Shown: piece by piece, positions 300-20,486 of the stretch | Layout of the letters: each line of letters begins with the position of its first letter | How positions within the stretch are numbered: position 1 is the first letter of the stretch | Source: Paramecium tetraurelia | Taxonomy: Eukaryota | Direction of reading: 5' to 3' | Assembly: GCA_000165425.1 (NCBI GenBank) | Contig: CT868057.1 | Span: forward strand, 186,001 to 212,585 | Length of the DNA stretch: 26,585 bases | Notes under the pieces: model-generated | Told to the model about the DNA's origin: nothing | The model's input: only the letters and a program-made list of their open reading frames with translations | Databases searched by the model: none | Translations under genes and position numbers: made by a program

Positions 300-2320
300 C
301 AAATTTATGAAAGTTGCTTATTATTTTAGAGTAAAATTCTGAAAAATCATATCTTTATCGAGATATTGCATTATTCAATTATAATATCTATTTTTTATTT
401 ATTAGCGATAGATTTTATTTTTGACTTAATAGAGATTTTTTTAATCAATTAAGATTGCATGATTAGATAAGTTATTAAGAAGATTAATTTGTAGGTTATG
501 TTTTCAAATTACTGTTAATTGATAAAAATAATCTGTTTTTATTGTTCTTTCAGTTTAGGAATGATTTCTTTTGATTAGGTAATATGCCTGCAGTTATATT
601 AGAATAGAAATAGAAGTTATCAAATTTTCCTCAATTTTTATTTTCTTTGATTTGCCATAAATAATCCGTATAGATGTCAAATAAATAAAAAGATGGAATA
701 CTTCCTTATGATATTCCATTTCAAAAAGAATGTTTAGCTTCATTATTATTATAGTATTATTTACTAATTAATGCTTTTAGAAATTTTAGCTCGTTAATCG
801 CAAGTTTTGTTTTCTTTTTTATATACAGATATAGTAGATCTAGATTAGCAGTATTGTATGCCCATTTAAAATCAATGAATATTACTACTTTATTATAATA
901 AGCTCCTTATCTTGAAATATCTTTTATTAATTTAAAAATCTGAAATAAAGTTCCAAATCCTTTCATAAAGCCAAAATATTGTTTTATTATTTTGCTTTCA
1001 CAGAATCTGCTTAAAAATTTTAACAATCGCAATTCTATCCGCTTATATAAGAGTCTTAACATTGTAATTGGTCGAAATTCGCTAGGCTTTGGATAGTTTT
1101 TATTTAATGGGATTATAACGAACTCTCCGAAGTTTTAACTAAATTTTATGTACTACTTCTCCAAACATCATCAAAATAATGAAGGATCAATTTTTGGATA
1201 TCCAAGTGTCTGAAATTAAAACATTCGTTAACGCCTTGTTTTATCTTATTCTTGATTTCATATATAAAAATGGTTTAAAAGTAGTAGGTTCTAATTCTTG
1301 GAGTGGGATAGGTAGAAATTTATTAGTCCTTAATTATTTTTTTATGTATATAATACATTATTTTTGGATGTCTGTTTTCTGTGATTAAGTAATCTAAATT
1401 ATCAATGTAACAATTCATGATTTCACCATCCCTTTTAATTGGATTAACTATAACTGGCTTGTTAATTAGTTTGCGAATAATCTTATTTTACTTAATTCTA
1501 ATATTGCTATTAATTAATTAGAGTTTATTTAAAAATCTTAAGGAATTCTATGCATTATTAATTCGAGACTTTATCTTTTCTTCTATAGAGTTAGAATCTC
1601 TTTTGATTCTACTGAATTTTATGGATAAATTCTCTGAAATTCTCACTGAGAGTGCAATTCGAATTCAATAGTTAAACCTACTGCTTGTTCATTATGAAAT
1701 TATATTGCTTTTAACTTCTTAGGTTTTTTTTCAAATTTAATGAACAAATGATTAATTTATGATTAGAAAGTTTATTTTCCTGAAGTTAATCGAATGCGAA
1801 AGCTCTTAATTGATTTGAAAAATGTCTGCTTTTGATTATCGAAGCTTGTTCTTTACGTATTTTTAGTACGTAATTTAAGATTTTTGGATTAAATTTCCTT
1901 TGAGCTTAACTGTACTATTATTAGCATCATTATAGGAGCAAATTGGATTTTTGATTTTAAGTTGAACAATCAAGCTTTGCAATTTATTTAATTAGTTTCT
2001 GAAACATTTAGAGTTGACAGAGTCGATATTCGCAATATATAGTTCTACATTATTTTTTGTACATTAAACTAACAAAAATTCAGTATCATCTACTTTTAAT
2101 TATGAGAAATGTCTCTGCATATGAGTTATTTATGAATGCATTTACTTATTCCTCCGCCTGAAGAATGCTCGCTAAGTAATTTAATAATGAAATTGTATCT
2201 AGAAGAAGTGTTTATAATCTATTGAGTTTCTTGAAGACATATTTCATTTTCTTTTAAATAATTATAAAGTGATTGGTTTTAGAGAGGAAATATTTCAACA
2301 CATTACTGTTATTTAATGAT
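300..2320 (-). mobile_element. Degenerate non-LTR retrotransposon (LINE-like) ORF remnant with APE endonuclease and reverse transcriptase domains; 3' boundary approximate
   Basis: Minus-strand motifs in canonical order across frameshifts. APE: VMC*NISSL (~2280-2306; WN motif with probable TGG>TGA), ICLQET (2225-2242), SGGGI (~2148-2161), QSKADIF (~1820-1838), LSNHKLI (SDH motif, ~1750-1770). RT: NKAL..LISDTW (1202-1240), IIPLNK..P..FRPITML..YK (~1045-1116), FGFMKG (~958-975), FIDFKWAYNT (850-879), NGISQGS (700-720), LFDIYTD (664-684), decayed YADD region LQAY-YLI (573-593). Confidence 0.85.
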
Positions 2321-2519
2321 GTTTGAAGTTTATATCGTTTTAGTTTTAAAGTTTTTATTTATTTATTAAAGTATTTATTATATAATATTAATTAAAAAAT
2401 ATATATATATCAAAAAAGATGTAAGTAAGAATGATAATGTTAAAAGATTATGGGTAAATTATTTTATTCAATGAATAGAAAATGAGATTGAGTTAAGTTA
2501 GATAAAGCGAGAATAATGA

Positions 2520-3488
2520 GTATAATAATAATAAATAAATAAATGATAGAATGATATTAATTTGTTTTTATTTTTATTGATGAATATTGTAAGGTCATGC
2601 TAGTTAAGCGGCATTAACTTTATTGCAAGTATCTTCTAATAAGGCTAGAAGTGTTTCTTCTGTAGATTCTCTAAGATGATAATAAATAAAAATAGAAACC
2701 TTTATTTTTTTTCATTGTCTACTTCAGTTTTGATTCTATTGACAACATCTTTTAACATATCAAAGATTGCTTATTCTGATTCTTATCTATTGACTTTCTC
2801 TTAAACTAATAATTAGTTTAATTTGCTTAATTCTTCATTCATTTTTCTAGAGATGTTTGAATCCATTTCTTCTCTTTCTGCTACTTCTGTCTTTATAGCT
2901 TCATGTAATCTTGGTAAATCTGTTTCTAAACATTAATTTAATCTTTCGATATTTTCATTTCTTGTTCTACTTTCTGTACTCAATTCACTTCTTATTAATC
3001 CAGTCTTCTCTTCAATAAATCTTATAATCTTCTATTCTCCATCTTTTCTTGTTGATGTCAATCCTTCAACTGCCTAATTGAATGAATTCTCTAAATCGAT
3101 ATATTCCTTTTATTTTTATTCAAAATGTTATTCTCTTTATAATTTTGTTTAATCCAACACTTTCTATAATTTCAATACACTATCTTTTATCAAAGCTACT
3201 CTTTAACTTAATTATTCATTTAATTCATTCAATCCAGATTCCAATTAATCTAATCTTGTCTCTGATTCCTCTATTCTTTTTGTCTATATAAATATTAATA
3301 ATTATATTACTCTCTCTCCTTCTATTGTTAAATCCATCTAACTTAATTAAGAACTTATTTTTGCTACTCTCTCTCTTGATGGTGAATAATCTACTATATT
3401 TCACTATACCTTACTTCTATTATTTGACATATCTAACTGATTATTTAAATTAAAAGATAATATTAATATAAATAAATTTATTGCTAAT
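2520..3488. repeat. Left arm of a 969-bp inverted repeat (partner 7220-8188)
   Basis: Reverse complement matches 7220-8188 with constant coordinate sum 10708 at both ends and at the mirrored 69-aa ORFs 3082-3291 / 7417-7626. No mismatches seen in manual comparison, including introns. Confidence 0.97.
2595..3430 (-). CDS. SF-assemblin / beta-giardin family striated (kinetodesmal) fibre protein, copy 1, ~252 aa, 3 introns
   Basis: Mirror image of the gene at 7278-8113. Coiled coil ending ...ESEQAIFDMLKDVVNRIKTEVDNEKKQRESTEETLLALLEDTCNKV, which is the SF-assemblin C-terminal pattern. Confidence 0.88.
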
Positions 3489-4122
3489 TTATTTTGCTCA
3501 AATATCATTTATAATTAGTTATTATTAGAATATTTATAATTTTTACAAAAAATTTAGCATTTAACAAAGTTTAGACACATCTCCATTTTATCTAAACCTT
3601 TATTTAAGGCTATTTTAAACTTAACATTAGGCTTTATGCAATATTGTTTCTCAATGTGGCTCAGCTAATTTTTTAACAGATGCTGTGTTTTTTCGAGTTT
3701 TCTATTTTAATTAGATTAATAACATTGCTAGATACTTGGAAGGAAATTTTAGAGTAAAATCATATGTTTTAGAGCATCTTAAATTGATATCAATAAAATT
3801 AGATTGAGAAGTAGATTTTTTTTAACATAAAGGATTAAATATTTATTGTGAACATTCAATTTTTATTATTTAAATAACATTTACATATAAAAATGATTTT
3901 TATACTCTATTAGTTATTATGTAATTGTTGTAATAATAAAAATATAATGTTTTCTGAAATTGGATGAAAATAATTAAAGTCTAAAATGATGAATTAACTG
4001 AATTTCTGTTAATTTATAGTATTTAGAAAAACTTAAATATGAAAGAGATCCAAGGCTTTATTATTAAATAGGAATATCATTAGAGTCGATTGTATTGATT
4101 TAATTTTAATTAGTAATATATA

Positions 4123-5406
4123 TCAATCATATTTGGAGTAACTTCTTTATTTAAAACTTTATTTTCCTTTTAATCCTGTTTTGGTAACAAAACTTGTTTT
4201 TGTTGTATCGAACCTAAATGACTATTCTTGCGGTTATCGACTGGGTTATTTATATATGGTTTATTAATGTGGTTAGTTTTTTGGGGAAGATTTATTGCTA
4301 TGTACGTTTAATGAAACCTTTTTCTACAAGACAACCTTTTCTTATTATTTAAGATTTGTATCCTTTTCTTAAAACTCTCTTTTAGAATTTTGTCTACCAG
4401 TTTATATTTACAAAATTTTTTGGGGTTTTTCTGAAGAATTGAAATCAAGTCTATTTCTTTAGATTATAACAGTTTTGTTAAGTGGGGATGCCTATTGCTT
4501 TTATGTGTTGGGTTTAGTGGAAGATAAATAAGTAGGAGGTTTTAGACAGGCCTTCACTAATTCTTAATAATTTTTAGGAGGCGTTTCATTTGGTTAAGTA
4601 TTATTAGGAACACTGGATTATCTTAAAACTGTTTTTTCATAGAAATCGTTAAAGAACTTTCCTTTCTTTCTAGTTCCATCTTGATAAATTAATTCACCTT
4701 CTCCATGCTTTTTATCATTCATATAATATCCCTTATAAGAGTATGATGAACATCTGTACTCTCCATAGCCAGTTTTTAGCCCATTTTTAAATTTTCCATG
4801 AAAATAAGCACCGCTTGAATAAAAATATTCTCCATCTCCCTCTGGTTTTCCATTTTAATATATTCCAACATACCTATCCCCATTTGCAAATAGTTCTTCA
4901 CCAAAACCATGTTTCAAACTATCCTTAAATTCTCCTTTATATTAATCTCCATTAATCCATTTATGTTAACCTTTACCATTTGGTTTCCCTTCAATCCAAA
5001 ATCCAGTATACATGTCTCCCTTTAAGCCCATCCAAGTTCCTTATCCATGTTTATTACCGTTAAACCATTCTCCATCATAATATTCGCCATTTGCCCATGT
5101 AAATTTTCCTTAGCCTTCTGGTTTTCCATTTACATAAAGTCCTTAATAATAAGATTTGGATGGAAAAATTTCCCAGCCTTGACCGTGCTTCCGATTATTA
5201 TTGAACTCTCCTTCATATACATGATCCTAATCCATCAGCAGTACACCTTTGCCATGTTTTTAGCCATTGAATACCTACCCAAAATATATTTTGTTTTTAG
5301 AACTAACAATACTAAAATTAGGCAATTGCTTTAATTCTTAAAATGAATATCCCTTTGTATTATTCTTATAACTTTGTATTCTTAATATTATCAGATTATC
5401 GATCAT
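4123..5406 (-). CDS. MORN-repeat protein, 427 aa, intronless, with a low-complexity C-terminal tail
   Basis: Open in code 6 from ATG 5404-5406 to TGA 4123-4125. About 9 tandem MORN repeats, e.g. YEGEFNNNRKHGQG, YDGEWFNGNKHGQG, YKGEFKDSLKHGFG. Confidence 0.92.
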
Positions 5407-5465
5407 TTAATTAATTTATGTTAAAATTGAATAAAAAAAATGATTATTTTTTAATTTGATTTCAA
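5407..5465. promoter_or_regulatory. 59-bp head-to-head intergenic region, probable bidirectional promoter
   Basis: Lies between divergent ATGs at 5406 (-) and 5466 (+); about 90% AT. Confidence 0.55.
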
Positions 5466-6933
5466 ATGAGTGATGAAGAATCAGAAGATGAAAATAGATC
5501 CAAATTCAAGTTATCTAAGACTCATCAATTAATTAATTAACTTGAACACAAACTTTCAATTCTTGACTAAAAAAATGCACCTAATCTCTATCCAATATCA
5601 AGAGATTCACATCTTAAAAGTAAATAAGAATTGGAAAGAGAATTATAATAATTTGAATAAAGAATGAGAAAACTTAATCAATCAGAAAACTCCTAGTTAC
5701 ACTCATCATAAGCAAAATCAATCCCAAAGCAATCACCATAGAAGTTGAATCTATCTAATCCTATTTTATAATTATTAACTCAAAAATTAGAAAGTTTTGA
5801 TGAGGATAAAAATACTATGTTAACATCGAAATAAGATCATTTTCATAGAGAATAATAAATATTAGAATAAGAATAAAATAATTTGTTAAGAGAATAATAA
5901 TAAGCAAAATTTGAATTGGAATCATTGTTAAGAGGTTTAGAAATTGAAGAATAACGAAAATTGAATGAATAAAAGATATCAATTCTTAAGGAATAAGAAG
6001 AAAAATTATTTGATATTTAGGAATAAAGTGAAAAGCTAATATAAGAAGAGGAAGAAAAAAAGACGAACTTTTTATTGGAATTGTAATAACTATCTTTTGA
6101 AAAAAATCAATTACAAGCTTAATTATAAGTATTTACCCAAATGATATTCTTTTTTAGAACTTCGCAAGAGAATAAGGCATGTTAATTAGTAATCGAGATG
6201 AAATATCTAATTAATTAAATACATTGATGTAATTGCATAATCAAATACTTTAAAATGATTTAAAAAAGAAAGTAGTTCATCTTGATGCTTCTCCTCTGCA
6301 GAATCTTTATTAGATGAATTAACAAATTCAAGAATCAATGAATCAATAGCTATCTTTAATCAGACAAGAATTGAATGAACAAAAATAAATTAATTTAGAT
6401 CTCCTATAGGTTCTTAGCGGAGAATAGCAACAAACACATAGATAAATTGTTTCAACAGAGATGCAATAATAGTTAGAATAACAATAATAATTGTAATAAT
6501 AATCAAATTCTTAAATTCAATTCCAAAACAACACTTGCCAAAATCTAAATGAAAATTTGGAAAGCGAGGAAAGTAACATTATGTTTCAAAAATATAATAA
6601 CTAAAATGCTAATCTATATATATAAAAAGATTTTAATTAGCTTTTTGAAAAGCATAAGAAATAGTATCTATTAATTAATAACTTAGATTATTTAAGCCAA
6701 AATAAAAACTATATTTGAAATAAAACAAGGCTACTGTAGAAAAAAGGAAAAGGTCCATAGATGCAGCATAATCTAAATCAAAATCTAAGTCAAAAGAAAA
6801 GGAGAATTTTATATTGAAAGATAAAGAAAAAAAGAAAACTCCCTTATCATTTGAGGAAACATACAAAAGACACATCCAAGATTAATTAAAGAAACTTAAT
6901 TTTATTGTCGAAAAATCTTTAAATAATAAATGA
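5466..6933 (+). CDS. Uncharacterised Q/E/K-rich coiled-coil protein, one intron (6129-6157)
   Basis: Starts MSDEESEDENRSKFKLSKTHQLINQLEHKL. Open in code 6 after removing a 29-nt GT..TAG intron; ends at TGA 6931-6933. Confidence 0.8.
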
Positions 6934-7219
6934 AAGAATAATAATCTTCTTTTAGCGTTGTAATGAATCTATACTGATTATAATATATATTGAAATAAAT
7001 AACTCTCTTATTTTATTTTTTTTGATAGCAAATCAGCTTTATAATATAAATTAATGAGAACTAAAATAAGGGAAAATAAGTGTGTTTTATATGTTTTTCT
7101 GATAACCATGCTGAGATTATTATTGCTAGAGAAGAAGATATCGTTATTTGTAATTGCAGTAGAATAATCAATTAAATTTTCCTGAATTTTTAATATACTG
7201 ATTGAGGCATTGATAAGGC

Positions 7220-8188
7220 ATTAGCAATAAATTTATTTATATTAATATTATCTTTTAATTTAAATAATCAGTTAGATATGTCAAATAATAGAAGTAAGGT
7301 ATAGTGAAATATAGTAGATTATTCACCATCAAGAGAGAGAGTAGCAAAAATAAGTTCTTAATTAAGTTAGATGGATTTAACAATAGAAGGAGAGAGAGTA
7401 ATATAATTATTAATATTTATATAGACAAAAAGAATAGAGGAATCAGAGACAAGATTAGATTAATTGGAATCTGGATTGAATGAATTAAATGAATAATTAA
7501 GTTAAAGAGTAGCTTTGATAAAAGATAGTGTATTGAAATTATAGAAAGTGTTGGATTAAACAAAATTATAAAGAGAATAACATTTTGAATAAAAATAAAA
7601 GGAATATATCGATTTAGAGAATTCATTCAATTAGGCAGTTGAAGGATTGACATCAACAAGAAAAGATGGAGAATAGAAGATTATAAGATTTATTGAAGAG
7701 AAGACTGGATTAATAAGAAGTGAATTGAGTACAGAAAGTAGAACAAGAAATGAAAATATCGAAAGATTAAATTAATGTTTAGAAACAGATTTACCAAGAT
7801 TACATGAAGCTATAAAGACAGAAGTAGCAGAAAGAGAAGAAATGGATTCAAACATCTCTAGAAAAATGAATGAAGAATTAAGCAAATTAAACTAATTATT
7901 AGTTTAAGAGAAAGTCAATAGATAAGAATCAGAATAAGCAATCTTTGATATGTTAAAAGATGTTGTCAATAGAATCAAAACTGAAGTAGACAATGAAAAA
8001 AAATAAAGGTTTCTATTTTTATTTATTATCATCTTAGAGAATCTACAGAAGAAACACTTCTAGCCTTATTAGAAGATACTTGCAATAAAGTTAATGCCGC
8101 TTAACTAGCATGACCTTACAATATTCATCAATAAAAATAAAAACAAATTAATATCATTCTATCATTTATTTATTTATTATTATTATAC
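7220..8188. repeat. Right arm of the 969-bp inverted repeat (partner 2520-3488)
   Basis: Reverse complement of 2520-3488. Covers 58 bp upstream of the ATG to 75 bp downstream of the stop. Confidence 0.97.
7278..8113 (+). CDS. SF-assemblin / beta-giardin family protein, copy 2, ~252 aa; introns 7294-7314, 7398-7424, 8009-8037
   Basis: MSNNRIDYSPSRERVAKISSQLSQMDLTIEGERTKRIEESETRLDQLE... to ...STEETLLALLEDTCNKVNAAQLA*. Short head followed by a segmented coiled coil. Confidence 0.88.
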
Positions 8189-8289
8189 CTTATTACTATT
8201 GCTATTATACCCATCTCTATCATTATCATCTTTTTTCAATATTTACTTCTATATATATCTATAGTATTTTTATTATTATTTATATAACA

Positions 8290-9550
8290 GGAAATAAAGA
8301 ATATGTATTTACTTAGATATTGATATCAGATACTTGGACCTAATAATATGCTACATATATGCTTGATTTTATAATTTATGGAACTTGGCTATTGACAGAT
8401 TTTTAGACAAAATTTATGCCTATTTTGCTTTATTCGTTTGAAAAAATAATATCAAAAATACCCGTATTATTTTAGCTAAATCCAATAAAATATTTTTTAT
8501 ATTAATGGCTTGAATAGAGTTTTGATTTCCTCTCTAATCATTCTGTAAGCACATGCCTTTCTAATAATATACAAGTTCTAGTAAATTCTTAGAATTAATC
8601 TAAATGTTAAGGCTTGTTCTAAATTACCTATTTTTTATCAATTTTAAATTTGCTATAACACAGAAATTGGTGGCTGCGAACTTGAATAAAAGGAAAATAA
8701 ATAAATGCTATTTCAAATTAACTAAAGTTTCAAAAAGCCTTATCAACAATTAAATATAGAAGATATGTTAGAAAGGAGGCTTTCTTAAGTTGAGAGCTTT
8801 ATAGATGCATTTTTTCACTTTAATTATTTGAGATATACACGGAATTATTTTTTGAAAGTATAAAAAACATTGGAATCCTAAATTGTTTCGATATATACTA
8901 ATTTTATACGAATGATCTAATTCTTATAATCCGAAAAATCAACTATAAGAAACTATTGACGTTATAAAAAAAAGAAAGGAAGCAACCAAATAAAATGTTA
9001 TTTAATTAGGCTTCTGCAATTATGCATTCTTAATTAGTTTATCTTATCAATATACCTTGAATACCAATATAAATATTTAGAAATAAAAGTTGACAAAAAT
9101 AGAACCCTGAATCTAAAAATCAAATCTACTGTTAAAAATGAATTATTTATTTTGACTTTAAGAAAATCTTAATAATTCAAAACATTAGCAATCATAATTA
9201 TTAAAGTCAATTAAAATAAATTAAAATTTACTACTTGGTTCCACTAAAAATTTTCAAAAGATTCAGATTTAAATGGAATAAACGCTTAAAATTATGGTTC
9301 AATCTACTTTAAATTACCCAATAAAATTTATATTTGAAATAATAGGAGAACTTAAATAAGATTTTGAAAGGGAAATATTAAATTAAATCAAATTTAATAG
9401 AGCAAAGAATATATTCTTTAAAATAATTACTTTGATTGCCCCTTTATCAAATAAGGGTTTGTCGATTTCAATTTCCATATAACTACCTAAATGTTCCCTT
9501 GTTTGATATATTAGATTTGATCTTAAAATGTATTAATTGATAAAGCAATA
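8290..9550 (+). mobile_element. Second, heavily degenerate non-LTR retrotransposon RT remnant lacking the APE part; boundaries approximate
   Basis: Plus-strand motifs in RT order across frameshifts: LISDTW (8320-8337), FFINFKFA-YNT (8631-8663; FIDFxxAYxT motif), LFEIYTE (8824-8844), FYTNDLIL (~8902-8925; decayed YADDL), YKYLEIKVD (9068-9094; YLG motif). Confidence 0.75.
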
Positions 9551-9858
9551 AAAAGAACCTCTATTATAGAACATAAAATATAAACATACAGCTTTTTTTG
9601 TTTTATTAGTTTTATATTTTAATATAACTGCTTTTATGAATCTAAGTTCTTTTAACAATATAATTGAGAACTTCATAAAATTAACAAAGAAATATATGTA
9701 ATTAATAATAGAAAATCTAGATTATAAATCTAAAGTTTGTAAAATTGTACAACTACAATATGATTATTTAAATGAAAATTTAAATTGATTATTTTTATTT
9801 GTAATAGTTTATTTATATATTGGTGTTATATAATATTAATTTAATTACTAACAGTCAG

Positions 9859-10356
9859 ATGTTCAATAAAGTTGGAAATAAAGAAAACAAATATACGCTG
9901 AAGACAGATGAATCAAATATTGAGGAGTTGCCACATATTACAAAAATCAAAAGTGATCATTTGGAACAATTAATATTTAATGTTAAATTATATACAGAGA
10001 ATCAAAACCTTGATCAAATGAAAAAATTTTTGGTAATGAATTATAAAAAATTCAATGATTTGTAATGTGCCATCGAGTAGCTTGAAACTGAATTAGAACA
10101 ATTGAACAGATAGGAATCACAATTTGAAAATTAAAATTAAGAAAAAAATTAAGAGAATGAATTACAAATGCTTTAATAAAACTTGGAGGCATTGCAAAAG
10201 GAAGAATAACAATATCAACAACAAATAAAACAAAAACAATTATAATTGCAGAATTAAATGTTTTATAGAGAATACTATTATATGTAGCAAGAGAAACAAG
10301 GCTTGATAGCATAGAATGCAAAATTACTTTAACAAAAATAATCTACTCATAGTTGA
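9859..10356 (+). CDS. Small uncharacterised coiled-coil protein, 165 aa
   Basis: MFNKVGNKENKYTLKTDESNIEELPHI...LQCAIEQLETELEQLNRQESQFENQ...QQKQSTHS*; fully open in code 6. Confidence 0.75.
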
Positions 10357-16737: not shown

Positions 16738-17590
16738 TCAATTTTTTTATTTTCTACTAGATTTTCTAGTTTATAATTTATTTACAATAGCTTAAAGATA
16801 ATCTCCATTAAGCCCCAATAACCCTGTAAAACAATTAAATTAAGTTGCCAATGGTACAAATTCAGTTTCATAATCTAAATTTTCAGTAAATAAGGCCAAA
16901 GAAACTTTATTATAAGGGTTTTTTTGGCTTAATTCATAAAAATATGCGATTGATAAGACACATTGCTTTTAATTGTAATATGCTGAGGATCCTCCTTTTA
17001 CCTTTTTTAATTATTATTATGAATACCCCAACGTGCTTGTAGATCCTTGCTAAAGCAGGATTTTAAAGTGAAACATATCCTATCAATGGATAAAATACTT
17101 CATAGAACTACTTATTAAAAATAGTTTCCTTGTTTAATTTATTTAACAAATTAGCATAAGAATTAGTAGTTGATTTAGTAAATAACTAAGCTTAAATTCC
17201 TAAGACTTCTCCATCTAATAATTCTTTTCCTCTTTTTAATAGTTCCTATGCTTCTTAGCCACCTTAAATTAATAAATTATGGATTTCATTGCTCTGTTAT
17301 TTTATTGATTCCCCATTGTAAGATTTAAGTTCTGCTATATACTGATCTCTTGTTGCATTTTTTATGTTTATGAATGACAATATAAATGAGTTCAAATAAT
17401 AAGAATTAGTTTATTTCAATTTTAATTTATTGATTGTTTTCTAAATTGATTCGAGAGTTAAAATGGTCTACAAGAACTCAGTATTAGCATTAGAACTTAA
17501 TGCTATCATTCCATTAGCAATTTCAATTATTTCACTTTGCCATCTTATAACTTACCTTATTTTTCCCAAATTTACAAAAAATTAGTAATG
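16738..17590 (-). CDS. Class A beta-lactamase-fold serine hydrolase / DD-peptidase-like protein, 5'-partial (N-terminus in gap); intron 17002-17026; apparent 1-nt frameshift near 17530
   Basis: EIANGMIALSSNANTEFL (SxN motif, ~17471-17525) and HVG|VKGGSS (KTG-equivalent, ~16984-17035) at plausible spacing. Ends at TGA 16738-16740. The SxxK motif is not visible and would fall in the gap. Confidence 0.7.
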
Positions 17591-18006
17591 NNNNNNNNNN
17601 NNNNNNNNNNNNNNNNNNNNNNNNNNNNNNNNNNNNNNNNNNNNNNNNNNNNNNNNNNNNNNNNNNNNNNNNNNNNNNNNNNNNNNNNNNNNNNNNNNNN
17701 NNNNNNNNNNNNNNNNNNNNNNNNNNNNNNNNNNNNNNNNNNNNNNNNNNNNNNNNNNNNNNNNNNNNNNNNNNNNNNNNNNNNNNNNNNNNNNNNNNNN
17801 NNNNNNNNNNNNNNNNNNNNNNNNNNNNNNNNNNNNNNNNNNNNNNNNNNNNNNNNNNNNNNNNNNNNNNNNNNNNNNNNNNNNNNNNNNNNNNNNNNNN
17901 NNNNNNNNNNNNNNNNNNNNNNNNNNNNNNNNNNNNNNNNNNNNNNNNNNNNNNNNNNNNNNNNNNNNNNNNNNNNNNNNNNNNNNNNNNNNNNNNNNNN
18001 NNNNNN
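17591..18006. other. Assembly gap (416 N)
   Basis: Run of N. Confidence 1.
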
Positions 18007-18667: not shown

Positions 18668-19286
18668 ATGGTACGATTAACTGAAAACGGAGATTTAAAA
18701 TCAGAATCTAAGCGAAAGAGATCCGATAATTAAAAAATAACGATAGGATATCATATCATTACCATATTTGAGACATCCAAAACAACTAAGAGTTAATAGT
18801 ATTACTAATCTAAAAAATATTTCATCCGATCGATTTAAATAATATTTATAATAAATACAGCTTAAAAGGTTGGTGAAAAGAGATTAATTCAAAAATAATT
18901 ATTCTGAAACAGAAATATATCCCTTTTTGAATTTGTAAGCAAAATAAATGAAATTTTCTGAAAAAGAATTTAAAGCTAATAACATGAGTGTTTCAATCAG
19001 TCAATCCAATATTTTAAATTAAGGGTCGAACCTTCAAACAAATAAGATATCTTTCGTTAGACTTAATCTTCAATAAAATAATGTCCCTTAAGCAATTACA
19101 AATAATAAGGATTCTTCAAGAAGAATTAAAACCTTTAATCAAATTGAAATCGCAGAAATTGTGGAGTAACCGGAAAGCAAGTAGCAACTCTATCTCAAAT
19201 TGAGGTTAAGAAATAGCGGTATAAAATAAACAATCAATAATTGGATTAAATAAAGATATAATTTCAACAGAAAATTTAATTCCTGA
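18668..19286 (+). pseudogene. Possible degenerate gene of unknown function
   Basis: MVRLTENGDLKSESKRKRSD... stops near 18905. A second frame stays open for about 125 codons to TGA 19284-19286. No recognisable domain. Confidence 0.3.
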
Positions 19287-20486
19287 TTTATTTAATTATC
19301 TCATCAGACTAGTAGATATTTCATTGATTTTATTTCTGATATCTTGTTTATCACTTTTTTTAAATACGATTATTATAACAGTTCATAGTTTTAATGTCTG
19401 AAGTCTTACGAAAAGATTCTTTTTTGATAATTTTATTCTTACAAGGTCTAAATAATTTATAAAGGTGTTGAAATTTTAATTAAGATTAATATCATAGATT
19501 AATACAATTTTTCAATTAAACAGAATCACTTGTGTTTTATTTTTTGTGTAGATGAATTATATAATAATGATAGATGATCAATTTTGAAAGCATTTCAACG
19601 GCATAGGTATCATTAGCTTTACTCAATTTATTACTTCAGCAAAATATTTTTACTAAAATTCTATCCTCCTTCGTTAGAATTTGGTTTAAAAATAGAATAA
19701 ATAAGTCTCTGGTATGTTAAGCAAAATCTAATTCAATTAATTTTCTTGGATTAAGATTTTTAAACATTAATTGAATTCAATAATCATTAAGAAGATTTTT
19801 TACTAATGAAGTATACTTATAATTGATGAAATAGGAATAATCAAATTGCCTTTGATAACTAATTTGGTATGATTTTAACTGTTTAATTAGTACCTTGATT
19901 CTATTTCATATTATCAATTAATTAATTTTGTAACTTTTCTTCTGTTATATAGGAGAAAAATATTAATTTTAGTAATAAAATTCTAAATTATAGATTCTTT
20001 AAAACTGTTATTAGAGAATGAATTTTGATTGAATTAAATAAAAATGGTTATATATATAATCACGCTTCAAAAAATCATGGATAATAGTTACATTTACTAT
20101 TAAAATATTCTCATAGATATCATATATCTCCTTAAGCACTTTTCTCAACATCAATTCTTATTCAATATTTATCATTCTATTTACAAATTAACAAATTTCT
20201 TATTAAGTTTTCAGTAAGCTTCTTTATCTATATTACATTAATAATGAGATTGATTATTTTATTTGAAGGATTCAATTTAAAAATCATTTATTAAAAATTG
20301 ATCCCAATCCATGATGGATAGATTCAATAGTTTAATGAATTAATAATTTCTTTATCTGATTTAATTATTTCATTCTCTTTCCTTATTTATTTGAATTATA
20401 AGAAATTCATTTTAAATAGAGATGTTCTCTCATTCTTTTTTTTATATATTTGAAAATACTAATAAAAAGAGATATTTAATTTAAAA

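What the first reader, a model, noticed from the sequence alone, without database searches (positions are those of the whole stretch)
300..9550. Both SF-assemblin copies are followed by a related but independently diverged LINE in the same relative position and orientation
Seen: the region is a mirror, LINE(-) SFA(-) [MORN(-) CC(+)] SFA(+) LINE(+). Each retroelement remnant begins about 100-200 bp beyond the repeat arm, co-oriented with its gene and just past a (TA)n run (~2399-2410; ~8249-8258). The remnants share motifs but differ mostly at synonymous positions: tta att tca gac act tgg vs ttg ata tca gat act tgg; ttc att gat...tac aat act vs ttt atc aat...tat aac aca; atc tat acg vs ata tac acg. 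Inference: they diverged as active elements under protein-level selection, not as one dead copy passively duplicated. That suggests two insertions at equivalent sites, i.e. a possibly target-preferring LINE lineage (SF-assemblin 3' flank or TA microsatellite), or RT genes once retained next to each copy. Site-specific APE-type non-LTR elements are established in other eukaryotes (R1, Tx1, Dictyostelium TRE). I know of no case at ciliate cytoskeletal genes.
Basis: partly seen in the sequence, partly recalled or inferred. Interest (0 to 1): 0.8.

Follow-up and report, generated by a model that had tools for sequence, protein, structure and literature searches.

The report
Two dead LINEs flank twin SFA7 genes
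Two identical, mirror-image copies of a Paramecium ciliary-rootlet gene are each followed by a dead retrotransposon, and these came from two separate insertions of related elements, an ordinary kind of genomic fossil with an oddly repeated landing spot.

Summary
A perfect 969-bp inverted repeat (2520-3488 / 7220-8188) carries two SF-assemblin genes. By primer match and gene numbering these are SFA7a and its unnamed twin.

- **Left flank.** It holds a clear LINE relic on the minus strand (RVT_1 E 5e-9; chain of 190-196 bits against a LINE ORF2 profile; weak endonuclease start).
- **Right flank.** It has no Pfam hit but is a real relic: 5'-truncated and bracketed by an 11-bp direct repeat (8287-9808). 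Its frameshift-aware protein path aligns to the left relic at z = 11 (35% identity).
- **How they diverged.** Third codon positions are random (+0.04 over baseline). First and second keep +0.25 and +0.32. Neutral simulations do not reproduce this. The two diverged as working elements, so they are two insertions, not one copy duplicated with the gene.
- **Landing spot.** About 85-100 bp of 3' flank beyond the arms is still about 73% alike and ends at both LINE junctions. Both elements therefore sit at nearly the same TA-rich spot.
- **Target preference.** Untested, because no genome is held. Zero of 8 SF-assemblin loci from metagenomes carry a LINE.

Verdict: known kind of element, real curiosity, modest interest.

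The parts
553..2377 (-). Left LINE relic (ORF2: endonuclease start, linker, RT to about motif B/C). It probably runs on towards or past the window's left edge.
   Evidence: Pfam RVT_1 E 5.3e-9 on 724-1167. tblastn of relatives covers 1852->553. Collinear profile chain: 2284-2039 (profile 21-105), 1848-1426 (181-323), 1384-1196 (355-422), 1146-745 (445-582), 720-643 (591-616), total 190-196 bits. P0014 residues 2-62 match 2236-2081, E 0.004. At least 4 frameshifts and 2 in-frame TGA (reading).
2378..2519 (-). 3' flank of the left SF-assemblin gene. Positions 2378-2459 are still alike with the right flank and include (TA)6 at about 2399-2410.
   Evidence: Local alignment score 46, about 73% identity. 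0 of 1112 natural-null segments reach it for either query (null maximum 45 and 36). (TA)5 match at 2400-2409.
2520..3488 (-). Left arm of the perfect inverted repeat: the SF-assemblin gene (twin of SFA7a), CDS about 2595-3429.
   Evidence: Protein P0156 is 100% identical over the 190-aa query. The SFA7a primer from the paper's supplement matches 3250-3271.
4123..5406 (-). MORN-repeat gene inside the mirror
   Evidence: PF02493 E 1.6e-38
5466..6227 (+). Coiled-coil-like ORF inside the mirror, no family
   Evidence: ORF; 0 Pfam families
7220..8188 (+). Right arm: SF-assemblin gene (SFA7a by gene numbering). CDS 7279-8113 with a 29-nt intron at 8009-8037.
   Evidence: Exon 3 translates to the C-terminus of P0156. 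Primer match at 7437-7458.
8189..8286 (+). 3' flank of the right gene. Positions 8204-8287 are alike with the left flank. (TA)4 at 8249-8257. First copy of the candidate target-site duplication at 8276-8286.
8287..9808 (+). Right LINE relic, 5'-truncated (starts near ORF2 residue 340). RT landmarks are decayed: motif A D->N, motif C reads YTND. It has 2 in-frame TGA and three 1-nt frameshifts near 8629-8686.
   Evidence: P0077 on 8305-8556, E 1.2e-5. Profile chain 8812-8946, 9029-9157, 9240-9389, 12.2 bits. Alignment to the left relic z 11.3.
9809..9819 (+). Second copy of the candidate 11-bp target-site duplication
   Evidence: The same 11-mer lies at 8276-8286 and 9809-9819. 2.1% of 980 AT-rich null pairs share a word of 11 or more.

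Best explanation
This is a somatic-type Paramecium locus. SFA7a and an identical twin face outward around a MORN gene and a coiled-coil gene. Each gene is followed, in its own orientation, by a dead non-LTR retrotransposon of the ciliate endonuclease-plus-RT clade.

Shown: the two relics are homologous but separated while both lineages still encoded working proteins. They are therefore two insertions by target-primed reverse transcription, not one insertion copied with the gene. The left relic keeps the start of ORF2. The right relic was truncated at its 5' end on arrival and carries an 11-bp candidate target-site duplication.

Inferred: the gene pair is old. Gene numbering suggests that the ohnologous locus has the same pair. 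Gene conversion keeps the pair identical. An older conversion tract reached only as far as the two LINE junctions, where likeness between the loci stops.

Inferred, and least certain: both elements landed within about 0-36 nt of the same point. That point is a TA-rich stretch in a spacer of only about 225 bp. An APE endonuclease with the usual loose taste for A/T-rich DNA nicks easily there, and an insertion co-oriented with the upstream gene does little harm. Strict site-specificity is not needed and has not been shown.
For: - Homology: left-right path score 140 against shuffles of 37.4 +/- 9.1, z 11.3, 35% identity over 185 codons.
- Selection signature: excess identity of +0.25/+0.32/+0.04 at codon positions 1/2/3, and pS 0.71 against pN 0.43. 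Neutral simulations reject it.
- Different 5' ends: endonuclease start at 2284-2039 in the left relic only; the right relic begins at the LISDTW region.
- Relatives have Exo_endo_phos plus RVT_1, and the named ones come from Paramecium and Tetrahymena.
- Candidate TSD around the right relic, null frequency 2.1%.
- Flank likeness of about 73% ends at both junctions. It is not extended by removing the right relic.
- A real intron sits in both gene copies.
- Gene numbers 36963/36966 and 34211/34214, and the paper's remark on duplicates of SFA7a and SFA7b (passages of PMC6819543).
- The stretch 7000-10100, which includes the right relic, has 0.94-0.96 of its sampled words in 14 runs of organism A.
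- LINE relics are reported to cover 0.84% of MAC-destined DNA in P. tetraurelia (PMC5405496, table seen).
Against: - Only two cases.
- The flank likeness lies in low-complexity AT-rich DNA. With the left flank as query, the best unrelated segment scores 45 against the observed 46.
- MAFFT aligns the flanks differently from the local aligner.
- The left relic's 3' end and any duplication around it lie outside the window.
- The left and right paths were built by choosing frames on likeness. The simulations did not copy that choice.
- Frameshift density is similar in both (about 3 and about 4-5 per kb), so the order of the two insertions is open despite 190 against 12 bits.
- No reported 3' tri- to penta-nucleotide repeat is visible at 9750-9808.
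- Chance co-location of two rare relics is unlikely on its face, which leaves room for real targeting.
Confidence: 0.6

Rival explanations
1. A target-preferring LINE lineage. The endonuclease of this family recognises the TA-rich motif, or the SFA7 3' spacer itself, and so hit the same site in both paralogous flanks.
For: There are two separate insertions. Their 5' junctions coincide with the end of flank likeness to within about 0-36 nt. They have the same orientation. The only two LINE relics in 26.6 kb are these two; the next best chain score in the window is 8.9. Target-specific APE LINEs exist in the R1 and Tx1 clades, with microsatellites among the targets (PMC4640811, introduction passages).
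Against: There are only two cases, and the two TA runs are one paralogous feature, not independent. The right run is only (TA)4. None of the 8 SF-assemblin loci from metagenomes (6 of them with 2 kb or more downstream) has LINE homology or a decayed chain (all 6.6 or less). Those loci come from other species and paralogues at 42-60% identity. Paramecium LINEs are described as widespread (PMC13085455, passage), and no preference is mentioned in the parts of PMC5405496 that I read.
Confidence: 0.2
2. One LINE inserted once and was copied with the gene by the inverted duplication. Both copies then decayed neutrally.
For: Mirror symmetry; the same orientation and junction; the two relics are each other's nearest relatives in the tree.
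Against: Third codon positions are random while first and second are not. The right relic lacks about 1 kb of 5' sequence that the left one has. blastn finds no DNA likeness between the relics, although the flanks beside them are about 73% alike. The tree join is flagged as a meeting of long branches.
Confidence: 0.04
3. The relics were RT genes kept under selection in place next to each gene copy after co-duplication, and died later.
For: The selection signature alone does not say where the selection acted.
Against: Synonymous sites are saturated while the adjoining flank is about 73% alike. The two have different 5' extents. Both carry frameshifts and stops. There is no sign of a host function.
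Confidence: 0.03
4. The gene copies were made by the LINE machinery. Either the RT switched template from LINE RNA to SFA7 mRNA (a chimeric retrocopy), or a read-through transcript carried the gene along (5' transduction). This would put the junction at the transcript's 3' end in both.
For: It would explain the same orientation and the same junction without any targeting.
Against: Both copies keep a real 29-nt intron and upstream sequence. The candidate duplication brackets the right relic alone, not gene plus relic. There is no A-run at the junctions. The junction lies about 175-215 nt past the stop codon, which is long for a Paramecium 3' UTR by my recollection. Gene conversion could have erased some of these marks.
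Confidence: 0.05
5. The right flank is not a LINE at all. Its likeness is chance in AT-rich, K/I/N/Q-rich translations.
For: There is no Pfam hit. Single profile hits are weak (E 0.06-0.75). The number of HSPs at E<=1 in the right-flank bins (16, 15) is no higher than in some other bins (13-19).
Against: z 11.3 against shuffles. Four collinear RT landmarks lie at matching spacing. The profile chain is beaten by 0 of 104 natural segments and 1 of 200 shuffles. P0077 scores E 1.2e-5.
Confidence: 0.03

Closest known systems
Paramecium germline LINEs, groups 1-5 (Guerin et al. 2017, PMC5405496; section 7 read)
   Same: ORF2 has an APE endonuclease plus RT. They belong to a ciliate-specific clade together with Tetrahymena elements. 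Most copies are decayed. A small share lies in DNA retained in the macronucleus.
   Different: I could not place these two relics in a named group, because the consensus library is in supplements I did not use. The reported 3' tri- to penta-nucleotide repeats are not evident at the right relic's end. That paper says nothing on insertion sites in the parts I read.
Unnamed P. pentaurelia proteins P0077 and P0026; Tetrahymena RT proteins P0014, P0045, P0146 (names)
   Same: These are the nearest named relatives. P0077 matches the left relic at E 1e-32 and also gives the one clear hit on the right relic. P0045 has Exo_endo_phos plus RVT_1.
   Different: They are annotated ORFs in other species. 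Their genomic context could not be fetched, so orthology to the left relic is open.
Target-specific APE LINEs of the R1 and Tx1 clades (Kojima and Jurka 2015, PMC4640811, introduction passages)
   Same: They have an APE-type endonuclease. Insertions recur at one sequence, and microsatellites are among the known targets.
   Different: Those families are defined by many copies at one target. Here there are two copies at paralogous sites. Ciliate LINEs form their own clade (PMC5405496), not R1 or Tx1.
L1-type chimeric retrocopies made by template switching (recalled, no call)
   Same: A cellular gene copy is joined head-to-tail to a 5'-truncated LINE.
   Different: The gene copies here keep an intron and upstream DNA. 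The candidate duplication flanks the relic only.

Membership tests
APE-type non-LTR retrotransposon (ciliate LINE clade) | Reverse transcriptase domain with motifs in order | tested here: met
   Left: RVT_1 E 5.3e-9; 132 bits on profile positions 445-582. Right: no Pfam hit, but it is collinear with the left relic at four RT landmarks, z 11.3, and has a chain of 12.2 bits.
APE-type non-LTR retrotransposon (ciliate LINE clade) | Apurinic-like endonuclease N-terminal to the RT | tested here: inconclusive
   Left: there is no Pfam hit on the ORFs 1973-2467 and 1734-2243. Weak collinear matches exist: P0014 residues 2-62, E 0.004, and profile 21-105 at 6.2-6.6 bits. Right: absent, because the relic is 5'-truncated. 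The relatives do have it.
APE-type non-LTR retrotransposon (ciliate LINE clade) | Target-site duplication and variable 5' truncation | tested here: inconclusive
   Right: an 11-bp repeat at 8276-8286 / 9809-9819, null frequency 2.1%, and truncation near ORF2 residue 340. Left: the 3' end is outside the window.
APE-type non-LTR retrotransposon (ciliate LINE clade) | Short tri- to penta-nucleotide repeats at the 3' end (PMC5405496) | tested here: not met
   I read 9750-9808 and saw no clear tandem unit. Decay could have erased it.
Site-specific LINE (R1/Tx1 type) | Many independent copies at one target sequence | not testable with these tools
   No genome is held. There are two copies only, at paralogous sites.
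Site-specific LINE (R1/Tx1 type) | Association with the proposed target (SF-assemblin 3' flank) elsewhere | tested here: not met
   0 of 8 metagenome SF-assemblin loci have LINE homology at E<=1e-3. All downstream chain scores are 6.6 or less. This is a weak test: the loci come from other species and paralogues.
Chimeric retrocopy by template switching | Processed gene part (no introns) with a duplication around the whole unit | tested here: not met
   The 29-nt intron at 8009-8037 is needed for the frame. The candidate duplication brackets the relic alone.

The most novel reading that the evidence does not exclude
A Paramecium LINE lineage whose endonuclease homes to a TA-rich, microsatellite-like motif in short 3' spacers, or to the SFA7 spacer itself. 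It would have hit the same site in both members of an old inverted gene pair, leaving relics that are tolerated in the somatic genome and now mark the outer limit of gene conversion between the twins. This would be the first target-preferring APE-type LINE described in ciliates. My searches for SF-assemblin with retrotransposon and for Paramecium retrotransposon insertion sites found no such report.
Probability: 0.2. Interest if true: 0.55.

Novelty: new member of a known kind. Interest (0 to 1): 0.3.

Why it matters
LINE relics are rare in the DNA that Paramecium keeps in its somatic nucleus. Two independent ones at the same spot beside paralogous genes give a small natural test of two questions: whether ciliate LINEs choose their sites, and which sites in a very compact genome tolerate them.

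The locus also shows concerted evolution of an essential rootlet gene, SFA7, whose silencing disorders basal-body rows (PMC6819543). The conversion tracts appear to stop at the foreign DNA.

The species has public germline and somatic assemblies and a curated TE library, so the open question can be settled quickly by someone who holds them.

Tried and rejected
- Whole genome: not held, so no family-wide target test was possible.
- Word-index protein searches with the left RT fragment: no hits at 'longer' or 'near' lengths. The full HMMER search did find relatives.
- Earlier notes of this scan: nothing on this genome or sequence. The three word hits concern other genomes.
I resent them as ORF pieces.
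- blastn and tblastn of left against right flank: only weak, low-complexity hits. The best tblastn hit (665-396 against 9142-9411) is about 300 nt off the diagonal and I dropped it.
- Codon pairing through relatives' HSPs: frames were mixed and the result is not used. It was replaced by explicit paths.
- Far-left 1-640: no robust LINE homology. One out-of-order profile hit at 280-146 (E 0.005) is unexplained.
- Empty-site reconstruction of the right locus: it does not lengthen the flank likeness.
- Tree of 111 RT segments: the left and right relics join, but as long branches and with no well-supported (starred) clade around them. It does not tell duplication from separate insertion.
Junctions, expression and somatic retention were therefore not checked with reads.
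- Relative age of the two relics: 190 against 12 bits and branch lengths of 1.1 against 2.53 suggest the right one is older. Similar frameshift densities do not. This is left open.
- timed out and was rerun. One search crashed in its last, optional baseline step, after printing the results cited here.

Full report
**What is there.** The window reads as ciliate DNA: about 23% G+C, table 6, and introns of under 30 nt. The repeat finder gives one outstanding feature: arms 2520-3488 and 7220-8188, 969 nt, 100% complementary, 3731 nt apart.

Each arm is a whole gene unit.
- It holds 59 nt of upstream DNA, a coding region (7279-8113 on the right arm) and 75 nt past the stop codon (reading).
- The product is SF-assemblin (PF06705, E 8.1e-10).
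- A 29-nt intron at 8009-8037 is needed for the frame. Exon 3 translates to the C-terminus of the database protein.
- Between the arms lie a MORN gene (4123-5406, minus strand, E 1.6e-38) and a coiled-coil-like ORF with no family.

The 190-aa query is 100% identical to a protein that NCBI names as macronuclear Paramecium tetraurelia, gene number 36963. The supplement of Nabi et al. 2019 lists SFA7a as number 36966 and SFA7b as 34214. Its SFA7a primer matches both arms. A second cluster member carries number 34211. [quoted passage not shown]

I infer that the window holds SFA7a and its twin. I also infer that the ohnologous locus has the same four-gene layout, so the pair predates the last genome duplication. 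This rests on gene numbering only.

**The left relic.** ORF 724-1167 (minus strand) passes Pfam's threshold for RVT_1 (E 5.3e-9, 36.5 bits against a cutoff of 29.6). A full HMMER search found 218 relatives at E<=0.001, the best at 7.5e-18.
- Twenty of these were looked up. Six carry a species name: two from P. pentaurelia and four from Tetrahymena.
- Three of the four long relatives scanned have an endonuclease domain plus RVT_1.
- With all 150 listed relatives as tblastn queries, 161 of 162 HSPs at E<=0.01 fall in 500-2250 on the minus strand.
- A profile built from them gives a collinear chain from 2284 to 643, profile positions 21-616 of 933, totalling 190-196 bits. The endonuclease part is weak (6 bits; P0014 E 0.004).
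- The relic is dead, with at least four frameshifts and in-frame TGA codons.
- Positions 1-553 show nothing robust. A full ORF2 would run past the window's edge.

**The right relic.** None of its 16 ORFs has a credible Pfam match, and single profile hits are weak. Three lines of evidence show that it is a real RT relic.
- The P. pentaurelia protein P0077 matches 8305-8556 at E 1.2e-5.
- Three weak profile hits (8812-8946, 9029-9157, 9240-9389) are collinear with correct spacing and total 12.2 bits. In one search, 0 of 104 same-length segments elsewhere in the window reached this (maximum 7.0), and 1 of 200 triplet shuffles did. A second scan with other offsets gave 8.9 as the next best. The opposite strand gives 0.4.
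- After I followed the relatives' alignments through the frameshifts, a left path (1249->634) and a right path (8284->9057) align with score 140. Shuffles give 37.4 +/- 9.1 with a maximum of 66, so z is 11.3. Identity is 35% over 185 codons.

The shared landmarks are LISDTW, the F-R/N-P-I stretch, motif A, an LKFxKAL stretch, and the LF-D/E-IYT end of motif B. The right copy reads N for the motif A aspartate and YTND for motif C. It has two in-frame TGA codons and three single-base shifts near 8629-8686.

Its homology starts at about residue 340 of ORF2, so it lacks the endonuclease. An 11-bp word lies at 8276-8286 and again at 9809-9819. Only 2.1% of 980 AT-rich control pairs share a word that long. 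This bounds the relic at 8287-9808. The next gene starts at 9859.

**One copy duplicated, or two insertions?** Over the 185 codon pairs:
- Identity at positions 1, 2 and 3 is 0.557, 0.616 and 0.373. Random pairing of the same codons gives 0.311, 0.298 and 0.332. The excess is +0.25, +0.32 and +0.04 (z 7.9, 9.7, 1.3).
- Nei-Gojobori pS is 0.711 (random 0.632) and pN is 0.426 (random 0.699).
- Of 65 identical residues, 35 use different codons; 31.0 are expected if codon choice were independent.

To measure alignment bias I evolved the left path neutrally in two lineages and ran the same pipeline. At the same overall identity, pos3 minus mean(pos1,2) is -0.04 +/- 0.05, with a minimum of -0.156 in 100 runs. 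The observed value is -0.214.

A DNA-level alignment blind to protein gives -0.153. Its simulations give 0.00 +/- 0.04 at two settings. A third setting had one outlier at -0.333.

Neutral decay of one dead copy does not explain the data. The different 5' ends agree with that, as does the absence of any DNA-level match between the relics.

**The flanks.** Just beyond the arms the 3' flanks are still alike. Positions 2459-2378 align with 8204-8287 at about 73% identity, with a 45-nt length difference nearer the arm. The score is 46, and none of 1112 unrelated segments reaches it for either query. The margin is thin for the left query (45), and MAFFT aligns the region otherwise. The inner flanks show nothing.

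The likeness ends at 2378 and 8287, which is at the two LINE junctions. Deleting the right relic does not extend it. Three things follow.
- The 100% arms are a recent gene-conversion tract inside an older region of likeness.
- The relics, saturated at silent sites, are far more diverged than the flanks beside them, so they did not share the flanks' last common state.
- The two insertion points lie within about 0-36 nt of each other in a spacer of roughly 225 bp (174 nt before and about 50 nt after the right relic).

The right one is only (TA)4, and (TA)5 is not rare here: 3 in the window, with 4 of 100 shuffles giving as many.

**Why the same spot?** I cannot decide. A loose A/T-rich nicking preference plus tolerance of a co-oriented insertion in a tiny spacer is enough, and it is my best reading. 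Real targeting remains possible at about one in five.

The only outside test I could run was 8 SF-assemblin loci from metagenomes (42-60% identity, 6 of them with 2 kb or more downstream). None has LINE homology or a decayed chain. That speaks weakly against a general SF-assemblin association.

The papers I read describe Paramecium LINEs as an old, ciliate-specific APE+RT clade with a widespread distribution, almost all of it in eliminated DNA and 0.84% of retained DNA (PMC5405496; PMC13085455, passages). They say nothing on target choice in the parts I saw. Their supplements with the consensus library were not used.

A retrocopy origin of the gene twins is contradicted by the intron and by the duplication flanking the relic alone.

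**Retention.** The stretch 7000-10100 has 0.94-0.96 of its sampled words in the contigs of 14 runs labelled organism A, and 0.82-0.90 in two more. This fits retention of the right relic in bulk, macronuclear DNA.

**Verdict.** The target-preference idea is a fair but untested lead. The elements themselves are of a known kind.

Noticed in passing
window 2520-3488 and 7220-8188: The twin SFA7 genes are identical through an intron and untranslated DNA. Gene numbers (36963/36966 and 34211/34214), together with the paper's remark on database 'duplicates', suggest that the same inverted pair sits at the ohnologous locus. That would mean four near-identical copies kept alike across two chromosomes.
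   Followed up: partly
window about 17590-18000: A run of N (a scaffold gap) interrupts the ORFs listed.
   Followed up: no
window 280-146 (-): A profile hit to the endonuclease-RT linker (positions 292-336, E 0.005) lies out of order at the far left. It may be a further LINE fragment or chance. tblastn found nothing robust there.
   Followed up: partly
window 19188-19346 (-) and 20333-20404 (-): Weak RT-profile hits (6.1 bits; chain 8.9). This is the best score outside the two relics and is probably chance.
   Followed up: no
proteins P0077, P0026: The somatic-genome annotation of P. pentaurelia holds 'unnamed proteins' that are ORFs of LINE relics. P0077 is about 75-85% identical to parts of the left relic by eye (alignment) and could be its orthologue.
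   Followed up: partly
window 3401-3488 (-) and protein P0156: The database model of the left twin starts 26 residues upstream of the ATG used for tagging in the paper. It runs out of the repeat arm into unique DNA, so the two identical genes have different annotated N-termini.
   Followed up: no
window 7000-10100: An RNA-seq run of a differently labelled organism B holds 0.20 of the sampled words, and two biofilm metatranscriptomes hold 0.09-0.11. None of these was laid on the window.
   Followed up: no
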